Positions 5,493-62,267 of a stretch of DNA of 64,000 bases are shown here, piece after piece. The number at the start of each line of letters is the position of its first letter. Positions within the stretch are counted from its first letter, which is position 1. The position numbers and the translations under genes were made by a program. A model generated the notes under the pieces. It saw nothing but the letters and a program-made list of their open reading frames with translations. It ran no database searches and was not told the DNA's origin. The DNA comes from Eledone cirrhosa. Its lineage: Eukaryota. The stretch is taken from positions 148,986,001 through 149,050,000 of the forward strand of contig OZ024740.1 of assembly GCA_964016885.1 (NCBI GenBank). The letters run 5' to 3'.

Positions 5493-5704
5493 ATATATAT
5501 ATATATATATATATATATATATATATATATATATATATATACATGTATATATATACATATATATATATATATATATATATATATATATATACATGTATAT
5601 ATATACACACATATATATATATATATATATATATATATATATATATATATATATATATATATATATATATATATATATATATATATATATATATATATAT
5701 ATAT
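5493..5704. repeat. (TA)n microsatellite, one of many in the window
   Basis: Direct reading of the sequence. Confidence 0.95.
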
Positions 5705-5957
5705 AAATGAAAGGTATAGAAAGTATTGTAGCAAGAAGCCAACAGTATTCCATAATATATAAGTGACTATAGCGTCAGAATGGGAAAATACTTAACGTAA
5801 GATGTGGTAAAAATAATTCAAACTCAATTCAAAAAGAATCAGGATATAGATTTATCCAACAGAATTTAGTGAAATCGAGGGAGAAATCAATAGAGCCTTA
5901 CCTCATGATAAAATAAAGTTTAAAATACTCATCCTTCAATTTGGGACAACTACAAAT

Positions 5958-6039
5958 GCTCTGTATAGTCTTGAAAAGACTATTTCACGAAAACTTTCAG
6001 TGGTGATGGTCACGGTTGGAATCCGATCGTCAGCAGAGC
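5958..6039 (-). ncRNA. Type I hammerhead ribozyme (copy 1)
   Basis: Minus strand: GCTCTG-CTGACGA-[T CGGA...TTCG T]-GAA-ATAGTCTT(TTC)AAGACTAT-A-CAGAGC. Stem I is 6 bp, stem III is 8 bp, cleavage triplet AUA. Confidence 0.85.
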
Positions 6040-6556
6040 TCAACACGATAGCCAAATTCTCACTGATTAATATGCCAAAAAGAGAATTTAAAAGCAGGCT
6101 AGTTTAACATCATGTGTGATTATGAAAATAAAACGCACATGTGGAAAAACAGGGCTGGTGACGTCAGAATGAAACGAATGTATGTTTACATGAAACAACA
6201 GTCAAAAACATTCCAAAAAAAACTCTACAATAAGGAGTTCAGCAAATATATATATATATATATATATATATATATATATATATATATATATATATATATA
6301 TATAAATGAAAGGTATAGAAAGTATTGTAGCAAGAAGCCAACAGTATTCCATAATATATAAGTGACTATAGCGTCAAAATGGGAAAATAGCTAACGTAAG
6401 ATGTGGGGAAAATATTCAAACTCAATTCAAAAAGAATCAGGATATATATTTATCCAAAAGAATTTAGTGAAATCCAGGGAGAAATCAATGGAGCCTTACC
6501 TCATGATAAAATAAAGTTTAAAATACTCATCCTTCAATTTGGGACAACTACAAATT

Positions 6557-6637
6557 CTCTGTATAGTCTTGAAAATACTATTTCACGAAAACCTTCAGTG
6601 GTGATGGTCACGGTTGGAATTCGATCGTCAGCAGAGC
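6557..6637 (-). ncRNA. Type I hammerhead ribozyme (copy 2)
   Basis: Same fold: CTCTG/CAGAG stem I, CTGACGA core, stem II base CGAA/TTCG, GAAA, stem III with one mismatch, AUA triplet. Confidence 0.8.
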
Positions 6638-6969
6638 TCAACACGATAGCCAAATTCTCACTGATTAATATGCCAAAAAGGGAATTTAAAAGCAGGCTAG
6701 TTTAACATCATGCGTGATTATGAAAATAAAACGCACATGTGGAAAAACAAGGCTGGTGACGTCAAAATGAGACGAATGTTTGTTTACATGAAACAACAGT
6801 CAAAAACATTCCGAAAAAAACTCTACAATAAGGAGTTCAGCAAATATATATATATATATATATATATATATATATATATATATATATATATATATATATA
6901 TATATATATATATATATATATATATATATATATATATATATATATATATATATATATATAAATATATAT

Positions 6970-7788
6970 ATACTATTAATAATGAGTTCAAAACTCAGGC
7001 AGTCCTTTACAATGAAATAGCTCAAAGAAAGAAGTATTTCTGAGCTGTGTAATACAAGTTAATATAAATTAATATATTTGATAAACACAAATACCAACAT
7101 ATCTATGTTTGTATTGTAAACGACTAAGTTAGCTAGATTGAAAAATACTAATTATTATCATACAGTTTGCCTGTCTAATACAAACATGGATATGTTGGTA
7201 TTTGTGTTTATCAAATATATTAATTTATATTAACTTGTATTACACGGCTCATAAATACTTCTTTCTTTGAGCTATTTCATTGTAAAGGACTGCCTGAGTT
7301 TTGAACTCATTATTAATAGTATCACTGCTCCTTACGTAGAGCTAAATTTAGCCCCATATAAACGGCTGTTATTTCTAGCAGCACGAGTATGGGGCAGCTA
7401 GACACTGGATAACCATGTGTGAAAAACCATGTGCGTTAAACAGTCTTTTTAAATATTTTGAAGTGAAACATACCAATTTTTCTGGTGCTTGCTGAGGAGA
7501 TAGAAATGCGGTATTCTTTCACTTTTTCATTTTTCAAAACTTATTTGGATTTTAAGGTTTAAACCTGTCTACGGAACAGGTTTGATTTTGAAATTTAAAT
7601 TTGTCCAAGCACCACGGCCATTTGCCAATATGCTTTGTTTTTATTGATTTATTATTTTAAATCGAGACAGGCAAACTGTATTATAATAATTAGTATTTTT
7701 CAATCTAGCTAACTTAGTCGTTTACAATACACACATGGATATGTTGGTATTTGTGTTCATCAAATATATTAATTTATATTAACTTGTA
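6970..7788 (+). mobile_element. (TA)n-flanked non-autonomous element: ~550-bp terminally redundant unit (7177-7788) preceded by an inverted partial copy (6970-7176)
   Basis: 7177-7240 repeats at 7726-7788. 6970-7176 is the reverse complement of a sequence running across the unit end-start junction. HHR-like motif at 7483-7614. Confidence 0.75.
7483..7614 (+). ncRNA. Hammerhead-like motif with long stem II
   Basis: TGGTGCTTG-CTGAGGA ... ~90 nt ... GAAA-TTTAAATTT-GTC-CAAGCACCA. A perfect 9-bp stem I brackets the core and the GUC triplet; stems II and III are imperfect. Confidence 0.6.
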
Positions 7789-59900: not shown

Positions 59901-60418
59901 GAATATGTGAATGTGAGTATATGTATTTTGTAGAGGTGTGCAAATATATTTGTGTGTGAATGCGTGGGTGAAAGGATACGTACACTTGAAAGAAAAATTT
60001 AAGTCTGAATGTTAATTAAGTGCAAACACAAAACCAACCACGCATATCTTTACTATCTCTAATCCTTCTATAGATTTAGAAAAATAACCAATAATATATT
60101 CTATAAAAATGTCAAAACAACAGATGGGAATCTAATTACTCACTGCCACCAAAAATTCTCACTGCTATCAAAAAACCACTCCCTCAACTATTCTTCTAAC
60201 AACTTCACCCTTCCCTCCTAATATTCTCTATAAAAACCAAATGGGTCCTCAGTAATATTATTCTGATGAAATGACAGTAAATAATAACATTGAAATATTG
60301 AATGTCTGCATAACTAAAACTTTGTAGATAGCAGCTGTTTTCAGGTTATGTAACGGTTATAGAAACACGTGTCAATAAATTCCTTTCAACTAAACTGTAT
60401 CCATTCAAATCTTTCTAT
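56997..60418 (+). mobile_element. Inverted second copy of the same Neptune PLE; disrupted ORF 57085-59408
   Basis: Near-identical reverse complement of the left copy. Stops at 57166 and 57484, frameshift near 58890. Ends in (TA)n. Confidence 0.93.
60258..60378 (+). ncRNA. Hammerhead in the Neptune terminal repeat (sense to the host gene)
   Basis: CTGATGA at 60263, GAAAC at 60362, palindromic ACACGTGT, GTC at 60371-60373, TTATT/AATAA stem I. Confidence 0.68.
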
Positions 60419-60775
60419 ATTTATATATATACATATATATATATATATATATATATATATATATATATATATATATATATATATATATATATATATATAT
60501 ATATATATATATATATATATATATATATAAATATATACATATATATTATATACATATTTATATATATATATACATGTATATGTATGTGTGTGTATATATA
60601 TATATATATATATATATATATATATATATATATAACAAAGGAATTGTGGTAAGATATTAATTCTTTTTATATATATATATATATATATATATATATATAT
60701 ATATATACATATATATTATATACATATTTATATATATATATACATGTATATGTATGTGTGTATATATATATATAT

Positions 60776-60960
60776 AACAAAGGAATTGTGGTAAGCAACC
60801 AGATAGACCATAACGCACCAGAGTACTCAATACTTAGGGTAGTAGAGTGGGAAATAGGAAAAAAGTATGACCCCGACAGCAGAGCTCAAGCCGTTTCGAC
60901 GACCATTTCTGGACTCCAGAAACGGCTTGAGCTCTGCCGTCGGGGTCATACTTTTTCCTA
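60776..60960. repeat. HHR-half family copy with terminal hairpin
   Basis: Same family as 50851-51030. Confidence 0.85.
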
Positions 60961-61548
60961 CATATATATATATATATATATATATATATATATATATATA
61001 TATATATATATATAGAGAGAGAGAGAGAGAGAGAGAGAGAGAGAGAGAGGGGGGAGAGAAAGATATACATATATATATACATATATATATATATACATGT
61101 ATATGTATGTGTGTATAGATACATTTAAATATATATATATATATATATATATATAAATGAAAGGTATAGAAAACATTGTAGCGAAAAGCCAACAGTATTC
61201 CATAATATATATAATATATATATATATATATATATATATATATATATATATATATACAAAACATGGGAACAAAGAGGAAAACTGCGTGGTTGCACATGGG
61301 TTACATATTATAAAATTAGTCCCTCATCAGTGATTTGCCACCCATCATTGGTATTTCATCGCATTAAAAATCATATACCTCAGGTTGGTGCGAGCAATAA
61401 CTAAAATAAGCTATTGGGACAAGTGAATCGCGTAAAGCGAGTGAGACAAGTAAACAACATATATATATATACATATATATATATACACACACATATATAT
61501 ATGTAACAATATATTAACAAATGGAAACTATATTTATAAAACCATATT

Positions 61549-61614
61549 TATTTCATTATACATATTTCAAGGGCCACCAAGGCAAACTATGGTGCGCTTT
61601 CATCAGATAAAATA
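61549..61614 (-). ncRNA. Type I hammerhead in a short (TA)n-flanked insert (~61505-61710)
   Basis: Minus strand: TATTTTAT-CTGATGA-AAGCGCACCA..TGGTGGCCCTT-GAA-ATATGTAT-A-ATGAAATA. Stem I is 8 bp with one G-U; AUA triplet. Confidence 0.72.
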
Positions 61615-62267
61615 TAATATACGTTAGTTTTATAAATAAATATTGACATACCCTGAAAAACTGCAACCATTCTTTTGCTTGTTGTATCCCAACAAATTAA
61701 ATATAACCTCTACATATATATATATGTATGTGTGTGTGTGATTGTGCATGCATACATGCATAATATATGTGTACATATAAAATCACAAAATTGGTATTTT
61801 CTGAAGTATAGGGGAAATTTGGAATTAATATAGCTTCTTTGGGAAGCTACCACAGTGAAGATAACAACACATAATAGAGAATGAGTCGAGCAAAGAAGCT
61901 CAAAAGACGAAGAAGGCCGGCTGTAACCATCCTTCCTTAGTTGGTCATTGATAAATTAGGGAGATTCTCACTGCTTCTGTAATTAGTGTTTCTTGACGCA
62001 TTGAAGGATGCAGAGTTACCTAGGGTTTTCTGCCCTTCGAACTCTCCTATACCATCAGAATCTCCCCGGAAAACGTCATAGAATTTTTACAACCAGGTGT
62101 TAATCAGTAAATTTACCTTAAGCACACACAGTATACGTAGACCGACAAAACTCCATGCTTCCACACTGTTGTTGGATCTCAAATCCGCTCGTAGCCTCTG
62201 GATGTTTCTTTCCCAAGCTAACTATTATTGAACCTACATGATTTTTTTTTTCTAAAACTATTTTAAC

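What the first reader, a model, noticed from the sequence alone, without database searches (positions are those of the whole stretch)
5493..61710. Many apparently unrelated, non-coding, hammerhead-carrying elements resident in (TA)n microsatellites
Seen: at least five short elements with no obvious mutual similarity (5705-6844, 6970-7788, 8056-8700, 51481-52098, ~61505-61710) are each bounded by (TA)n and each contain a type I HHR layout (stem I - CUGANGA - stem II - GAAA - stem III - NUH - stem I). Partial or decayed cases occur at 49445, 52948 and in the 50851 family. None codes for protein. Known: PLE pseudo-LTRs and metazoan retrozymes carry type I HHRs, often with a palindromic stem III, and PLEs form tandem and inverted arrangements. 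Inference: these form a diverse (TA)n-targeted, ribozyme-processed, non-autonomous system mobilised by the local PLE RT/GIY-YIG proteins. I do not know of a description at this diversity in cephalopods, but cannot check novelty.
Basis: partly seen in the sequence, partly recalled or inferred. Interest (0 to 1): 0.9.

Follow-up and report, generated by a model that had tools for sequence, protein, structure and literature searches.

The report
Hammerhead retrozymes and Penelope ends
The hammerhead ribozyme motifs are real and very abundant, but most are the cut-off ends of ordinary Penelope-like retrotransposons; three gene-less tandem repeats ('retrozymes') carry the same insertion scars at TA microsatellites and so likely hitch-hike on the Penelope enzymes.

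Summary
The motifs are real: 6 type I hammerhead (HHR) layouts in the window against 0.005 in shuffles. An 800-kb genome sample held 48 (about 180,000 genome-wide, extrapolated), with (TA)n enriched only on their 3' side. They are two known kinds, not one new system. Their 'decayed' cores are mostly family norms (U3-A8, U4C). Three (5706, 6974, 51482) are ORF-less head-to-tail units of 637, 549 and about 425 bp, i.e. non-LTR retrozymes. Added here: retrozyme 3' ends are fixed at internal TA-rich sites, not at the cleavage site. In two families, inverted pairs use two staggered sites, the PLE 'tail' signature (15 of 17 and 6 of 7 pairs). One family spread with GGAA in place of the catalytic GAAA (335 to 4), so cleavage is probably dispensable. 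No RNA or cleavage data. My searches found no cephalopod report. The scan earlier noted tRNA-bearing analogues in other genomes.

The parts
5706..6245 (-). Family A retrozyme, 5'-truncated copy of a 637-bp tandem unit; HHR at 5958-6039
6305..6844 (-). Family A second copy; HHR at 6557-6636
6974..7786 (+). Family B retrozyme (549-bp unit): inverted arm 6974-7176 plus direct arm 7177-7786; HHR layout 7483-7614 with GGAA for GAAA
8057..8699 (.). Family C: head-to-head pair of 3' ends of a Hydra-type PLE, both truncated in HHR stem I
49335..49625 (+). Family G: inverted pair of pseudo-LTR ends of a Penelope/Poseidon-type PLE; minimal HHR with CCGAAGA core and weak stem I
50852..51029 (-). Family F: inverted pair of 3' ends of a Hydra-type PLE, cut in the stem II loop of a U3-A8 HHR (further copies near 52672-52862, 60777-60960, 17740-17885)
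51482..52184 (+). Family D retrozyme (about 425-bp unit), inverted pair; canonical HHR at 51937-51979 with palindromic stem III
52910..53125 (+). Family H: 3' end of a Neptune-type PLE; U3-A8 HHR near 52945-52985 with short stem I
61505..61706 (-). Family E: 3' end of a Hydra-type PLE; HHR at 61549-61614
61156..61207 (-). About 50-bp 3'-terminal fragment of family A between TA arrays
53237..60422 (.). Head-to-head pair of Hydra-type PLE copies (RWK, DKT, CxCx5C; broken frames) with pseudo-LTR HHRs at 53385-53505(-) and 60258-60378(+)
2300..5492 (+). Penelope/Poseidon-type PLE (RT and GIY-YIG, broken frames) ending at the first TA array

Best explanation
The window is a nest of insertions into TA microsatellites made of two known kinds of hammerhead carrier, 5'-truncated 3' ends of autonomous Penelope-like elements (C, E, F, G, H) and ORF-less tandem retrozymes (A, B, D), the latter likely copied in trans by PLE proteins. 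Shown: family structure, links to ORFs, fixed 3' ends, scattered 5' ends in A/B/D, and longer-than-unit insertions. Inferred: a PLE RT/GIY-YIG complex nicks (TA)n on one or both strands and primes reverse transcription at one or two internal sites of the RNA. Two sites give head-to-head pairs with one long and one short arm. The retrozyme template is a circle or an uncleaved multimer, because copies run through the HHR and past one unit. Self-cleavage probably makes monomers and circles in A and D but is not needed for insertion. New copies land in the TA arrays flanking old ones, which builds the nests.
For: Descriptor against shuffles. TA within 200 nt downstream in 31 of 48 HHRs (background 7.5%) and upstream in 5 of 48; one per locus, 16 of 26 and 3 of 26. 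Compensatory pairs: 10 of 16 (D type) and 5 of 16 (E type). ORF links: C (L334, L335), E (L321), F (L249), G (six loci), H (L325, L329). Tandem units and arrays. 3' ends at fixed TA-rich internal sites: A 30 of 30 and 25 of 28, B 42 of 44, D 27 of 31; none of these sites is the cleavage site. One long plus one short arm in inverted pairs: B 15 of 17, D 6 of 7, as in the PLE ends H 16 of 16, C 8 of 10, G 2 of 2. Two-site internal initiation is the PLE 'tail' and HHR mutants still insert (PMC11167929). Hydra PLEs insert in (TA)n and carry canonical HHRs (PMC8557442).
Against: No RNA or cleavage data. No autonomous partner identified for A, B or D (none of 50 PLE 3' regions matched). A shows no inverted pairs and one 3' site, so it lacks the tail signature. 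Long D arrays (about 46 units) may have grown by unequal crossing-over. An autonomous parent of A, B or D could be rare and unsampled. Copies used for covariation were picked by the same descriptor.
Confidence: 0.82

Rival explanations
1. All families, including A, B and D, are just pseudo-LTR fragments of autonomous PLEs; tandem copies arose locally by unequal crossing-over.
For: True for 5 of 8 named families. Li et al. 2026 found Xenopus retrozymes homologous to pLTRs.
Against: A, B and D units close on themselves with the same junction at many unlinked loci. Dispersed insertions exceed one unit (A 17 of 30 and 12 of 28, B 20 of 44, D 17 of 31). No contiguous ORF in the sampled loci. None of the 100 listed B sites (of 335) has a partner 1.1-5 kb away.
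Confidence: 0.1
2. One reading: all are independent non-autonomous elements whose RNA ends are made by ribozyme cleavage. A weaker form: the short PLE ends are themselves transcribed from the pLTR promoter and re-copied like SINEs.
For: The PLE-end families have sharp 5' boundaries: 54 of 95 incidental F copies start within 12 nt, and only 4 extend further upstream; H 10 of 24; E 7 of 40. Such solo ends far outnumber full elements in the sample.
Against: Neither 5' nor 3' boundaries sit at cleavage sites. B has a mutated core in 335 of 339 exact matches. The hot spots could equally be RT stalls or copies of one truncated master.
Confidence: 0.07
3. Chance motifs in AT-rich palindromic DNA, or MITE-like DNA transposons targeting TA.
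For: The window copies look like inverted-repeat elements; Rfam gives no hammerhead above its gathering score.
Against: Shuffles give near zero; stems covary; 5' ends are variable; arms are staggered; ORF links are to RT, not transposase.
Confidence: 0.01

Closest known systems
Metazoan non-LTR retrozymes (Cervera & de la Pena 2020, PMC7229834; Li, Clavereau & Pollet 2026, bioRxiv 10.64898/2026.07.22.740005)
   Same: Non-coding, low-GC head-to-tail units with one type I HHR each; monomers to long arrays; many families per genome; co-occur with PLEs, which are proposed as the mobiliser. D has the one-pair palindromic stem III and U-U base of stem II described in axolotl.
   Different: A and B (637, 549 bp) exceed the 170-400 nt of the 2020 paper, though within the 51-972 bp of the preprint. 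The parts I read report neither (TA)n targeting nor tail-type staggered ends. No pLTR homologue was found for A/B/D. Circular RNA is untested here.
Pseudo-LTR hammerheads of Penelope-like elements (Cervera & de la Pena 2014, PMC4209133)
   Same: HHRs in PLE terminal repeats, mostly as solo truncated ends, opposite-strand pairs 100-700 bp apart, U3-A8 core variant, extra base after A9, short stem I.
   Different: Several here have long stem II inserts (50-100 nt); G has U4C as its norm; density is high (about 60 per Mb against thousands per genome in that paper's examples).
Hydra-clade PLEs and non-autonomous Chlamys elements (Craig et al. 2021, PMC8557442)
   Same: RWK, DKT and CxCx5C motifs, canonical HHRs, (TA)n insertion, inverted 5'-truncated arms with a tail; non-autonomous head-to-tail PLE derivatives are described in Chlamydomonas.
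   Different: Tails here are 42-136 nt against 30-40 bp quoted; clade assignment is by motifs only, no tree.
Poseidon element of Anolis, in vitro (Frangieh et al. 2024, PMC11167929)
   Same: Both strands cut in AT-rich DNA; two internal RT start sites; HHR not needed for insertion.
   Different: There the start site is not homologous to the target; here the sites of A, B and D are followed by TAT(A) in the unit, which suggests microhomology.

Membership tests
Type I hammerhead ribozyme | CUGANGA and GAAA core, NUH triplet, three stems with stem I open | tested here: met
   A, D, E and the PLE pLTR pair; C in longer copies; F in L249 and H as U3-A8 variants
Type I hammerhead ribozyme | Intact GAAA in family B | tested here: not met
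   335 GGAA against 4 GAAA exact matches; a divergent relative in L324 has GAAA
Type I hammerhead ribozyme | Stem covariation | tested here: met
   rows were picked by the descriptor, but the distal stem I helix of D, not in the descriptor, is paired in 21 of 21 rows with 2 of 3 pairs compensatory
Type I hammerhead ribozyme | Rfam hammerhead model at gathering score | tested here: not met
   D: Hammerhead_HH9 18.1 bits, E 0.031, gathering 52; none for A or E; none among the 150 of 168 rows shown for the window
Type I hammerhead ribozyme | Self-cleavage | not testable with these tools
   needs an in vitro assay
Non-LTR retrozyme (A, B, D) | Head-to-tail units, each with a type I HHR | tested here: met
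   units of 637, 549 and 422-482 bp; arrays of 3, 4 and about 46 units; B's core is mutated
Non-LTR retrozyme (A, B, D) | No coding capacity, no contiguous RT ORF | tested here: met
   sampled loci only; not exhaustive
Non-LTR retrozyme (A, B, D) | Expressed as linear and circular RNA | not testable with these tools
   no RNA holder listed
Non-LTR retrozyme (C, E, F, G, H) | Self-contained tandem unit without ORF | tested here: not met
   they continue into PLE 3' UTRs and ORFs
PLE pseudo-LTR (C, E, F, G, H) | Contiguous with an upstream RT plus GIY-YIG frame on the same strand | tested here: met
PLE-type insertion | Inverted 5'-truncated arm with a tail on one end | tested here: met
   H 16 of 16, C 8 of 10, G 2 of 2, B 15 of 17, D 6 of 7; absent in A
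Hydra clade (parents of C, E, F and the PLE at 53237-60422) | RWK, DKT and CxCx5C motifs | tested here: met
   all three in the window element; only CxCx5C checked in the parents of C, E and F; no phylogeny built
Catalogued repeat families (Repbase, Dfam) | Match to a named entry | not testable with these tools
   libraries not available

The most novel reading that the evidence does not exclude
This genome holds on the order of 180,000 hammerheads. Its retrozymes show directly, by the PLE-only two-site tail signature at (TA)n, that PLE enzymes mobilise them from longer-than-unit RNA primed at internal UA-rich sites. One family (B) spread to hundreds of sites with a catalytically dead core, so the ribozyme is dispensable for spread. 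Solo PLE ends may additionally be re-copied as SINE-like RNAs from a fixed start.
Probability: 0.55. Interest if true: 0.5.

Novelty: new member of a known kind. Interest (0 to 1): 0.36.

Why it matters
The link between animal retrozymes and PLEs has rested, in the papers I read, on co-occurrence and pLTR similarity. Junction anatomy shared by ORF-less units and true PLE ends in one genome is more direct evidence, and it names RNA start sites and a DNA target for an in vitro test. Family B is a natural control for whether cleavage matters. It also suggests that many short TA-flanked repeats in such genomes are PLE-derived rather than SINEs or MITEs. It is not a new class of element.

Tried and rejected
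Rfam on the whole window gave hairpin and microsatellite miRNA noise only. The repeat finder was swamped by TA arrays and was replaced by a masked self-BLAST. No RNA holder was listed (4 runs of unknown kind, one study), so no reads were laid; this says nothing on expression. Reading the tandem A copies as a unit with a built-in (TA)n spacer was rejected: other loci have a fixed 95-bp spacer. An alternative shorter HHR fold in B using an upstream GAAA was considered; under my constraints it scored -8.7 against -25.5 kcal/mol and the window copy lacks that G, but it is not excluded. B 5' ends near the cleavage site (7 of 44 within 24 nt) are post hoc and inconclusive. Initiator-like motifs at the 5' hot spots were seen by eye (motif recalled) and not tested. 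The U3-A8 descriptor is noisy (7 hits against 0-4 in shuffles); only L249 was accepted from it.
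Full report
Observation. A type I hammerhead descriptor (stem I of 5 or more pairs, CUGANGA, stem II up to 130 nt, GAAA, stem III, UH) found 6 sites in the window against a mean of 0.005 in 200 dinucleotide shuffles that kept microsatellites fixed. 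Two are the pseudo-LTRs of the PLE pair at 53237-60422. B (6974-7786) has the full layout with GGAA for GAAA. In C (8057-8699) both arms are cut inside stem I. Rfam gave only a sub-threshold Hammerhead_HH9 match for D and none for A or E.

Genome scale. That extrapolates to about 180,000 (bootstrap 110,000-260,000), with about 20 stem I/III signatures among the 48. A (TA)8+ array lies within 200 nt downstream of 31 of 48 (background 7.5%) but upstream of only 5 of 48 (7.8%); taking one HHR per stretch, 16 of 26 and 3 of 26. The window is therefore ordinary for this genome, and the TA link is polar. D-type HHRs (21 rows) show changes on both sides in 10 of 16 pairs, E-type (20 rows) in 5 of 16, with 0 of 500 shuffles reaching the covariation score. 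Rows were picked by the descriptor, so this leans towards the structure; the distal stem I helix of D was not in the descriptor and is fully paired.

Five families are PLE ends. C continues upstream into a 3' UTR and RT/EN frames in L334 and L335 at 92% identity. E does so in L321 at 98%, whose UTR is shared over 1.3 kb with L322. F is the end of the element in L249, where the whole HHR has a U3-A8 core. G lies 390-450 nt downstream of GIY-YIG frames in six loci. H follows a frame with DKG and a CX4CxxC finger in L325 and L329. By the motifs in PMC8557442, the window element at 53237-60422 is Hydra-type (RWK, DKT, CxCx5C), the parents of C, E and F share CxCx5C, H's parent is Neptune-type and G's is Penelope/Poseidon-type. 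No tree was built. The odd cores are family norms: CCGAAGA in 29 of 41 G copies, TTGAAAA in 43 of 44 H copies. U3-A8 is described in PMC4209133.

Three families are retrozymes. A is a 637-bp unit (511 exact matches to a 23-mer), B 549 bp (339), D 422-482 bp (5,946 exact matches to a 35-mer, with one array of about 46 units). No sampled copy is contiguous with an upstream ORF, and none matched 50 PLE regions downstream of EN. The 3' ends are fixed: A 30 of 30 (similarity-picked loci plus random sample) and 25 of 28 (pattern-picked) at one site; B 42 of 44 at two sites 82 nt apart; D 27 of 31 at two sites 58 nt apart. Each site is followed by TAT(A) within the unit and none is the HHR cleavage site. 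The 5' ends are scattered round the unit, and 17 of 30 and 12 of 28 (A), 20 of 44 (B) and 17 of 31 (D) insertions exceed one unit. In head-to-head pairs one arm takes each site: B 15 of 17, D 6 of 7; the other three pairs had one arm ending elsewhere, and none used the same site twice. True PLE ends follow the same rule (H 16 of 16, C 8 of 10, G 2 of 2); the window's C pair is an exception. A has no inverted pairs.

Mechanism. PMC11167929 showed for a Poseidon protein that both strands of AT-rich DNA are cut and extended, that RT starts at two internal RNA sites, which is the genomic tail, and that HHR mutants insert normally. The junctions here fit that scheme on a palindromic (TA)n target. 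For A, B and D the template must be circular or an uncleaved multimer (inference from length and from copies spanning the HHR). Family B has GGAA in 335 of 339 exact matches while a divergent relative keeps GAAA; A13 is held to be essential (recalled), so B probably spread without cleaving. A weaker alternative fold is not excluded. Which PLE mobilises each family is unknown; the window's own PLEs have broken frames.

Open detail. The PLE-end families have sharp 5' boundaries (F: 54 of 95 incidental copies within 12 nt; H 10 of 24; E 7 of 40; C 24 of 45, all from query-picked loci). A pLTR transcription start, an RT stall or a truncated master could each explain this; not tested.

Literature seen. 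Li et al. 2026 preprint, parts 1-3 of 5. PMC7229834, parts 2-4 of 6. PMC4209133, parts 1-2 of 4. PMC11167929, parts 1-2 of 4. Craig et al. 2021, passages and the Hydra section. PMC13282606 on Octopus vulgaris repeats, part 1 of 3 and a term search with 0 occurrences of hammerhead, ribozyme or retrozyme. Searches for hammerhead ribozyme plus Octopus, retrozyme plus cephalopod and non-autonomous Penelope-like plus TA microsatellite (25 of 63 listed) showed no report of cephalopod retrozymes or of tail signatures on retrozymes. No supplements were read and Repbase and Dfam were not available; either may hold these families. Earlier scan notes describe tRNA-bearing TA-targeted tandem units in other genomes; I did not test them and they did not change the reading.

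Verdict. Real and abundant, but composed of two described kinds. New members, with useful junction evidence and one mutated-core family. Interest 0.36.

Noticed in passing
window:50142-50240 and 62775-62885: Exon-like stretches that by eye resemble an organic anion transporter (SLCO/OATP; label recalled, untested), so part of the nest may lie in introns.
   Followed up: no
window:8815-8962 (also 292-428): A short TA-adjacent fragment that recurs in 16 of 80 sampled stretches; probably the 3' end of another very abundant element; parent not sought.
   Followed up: partly
window:18919-19184 and 63695-64000: Foldback elements in which the relaxed scan found no hammerhead; no match in the 80 sampled stretches.
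   Followed up: partly
window:5195-5235: The Poseidon-type PLE's 3' UTR has stem II, GAAA and a palindromic TATATA conserved in L250 and L279, but no canonical CUGANGA; possibly another core variant.
   Followed up: partly
flanks of L001-L240: About 30 further distinct hammerhead signatures turned up incidentally in the flanks.
   Followed up: no
window:25295-29270, 35478-40310, 29827-33663: Two RT frames with (TAA)n borders, an L1/Tx1-like element with a 1082-aa frame, and Helitron-like helicase fragments (labels by eye).
   Followed up: no
G000:C1:51772501-51792154: A satellite-like array of about 46 family D units, a candidate source locus.
   Followed up: no
window:52440-52592 and 61256-61460: Two more TA-bounded repeats found in 21 and 23 held loci, not characterised.
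   Followed up: no
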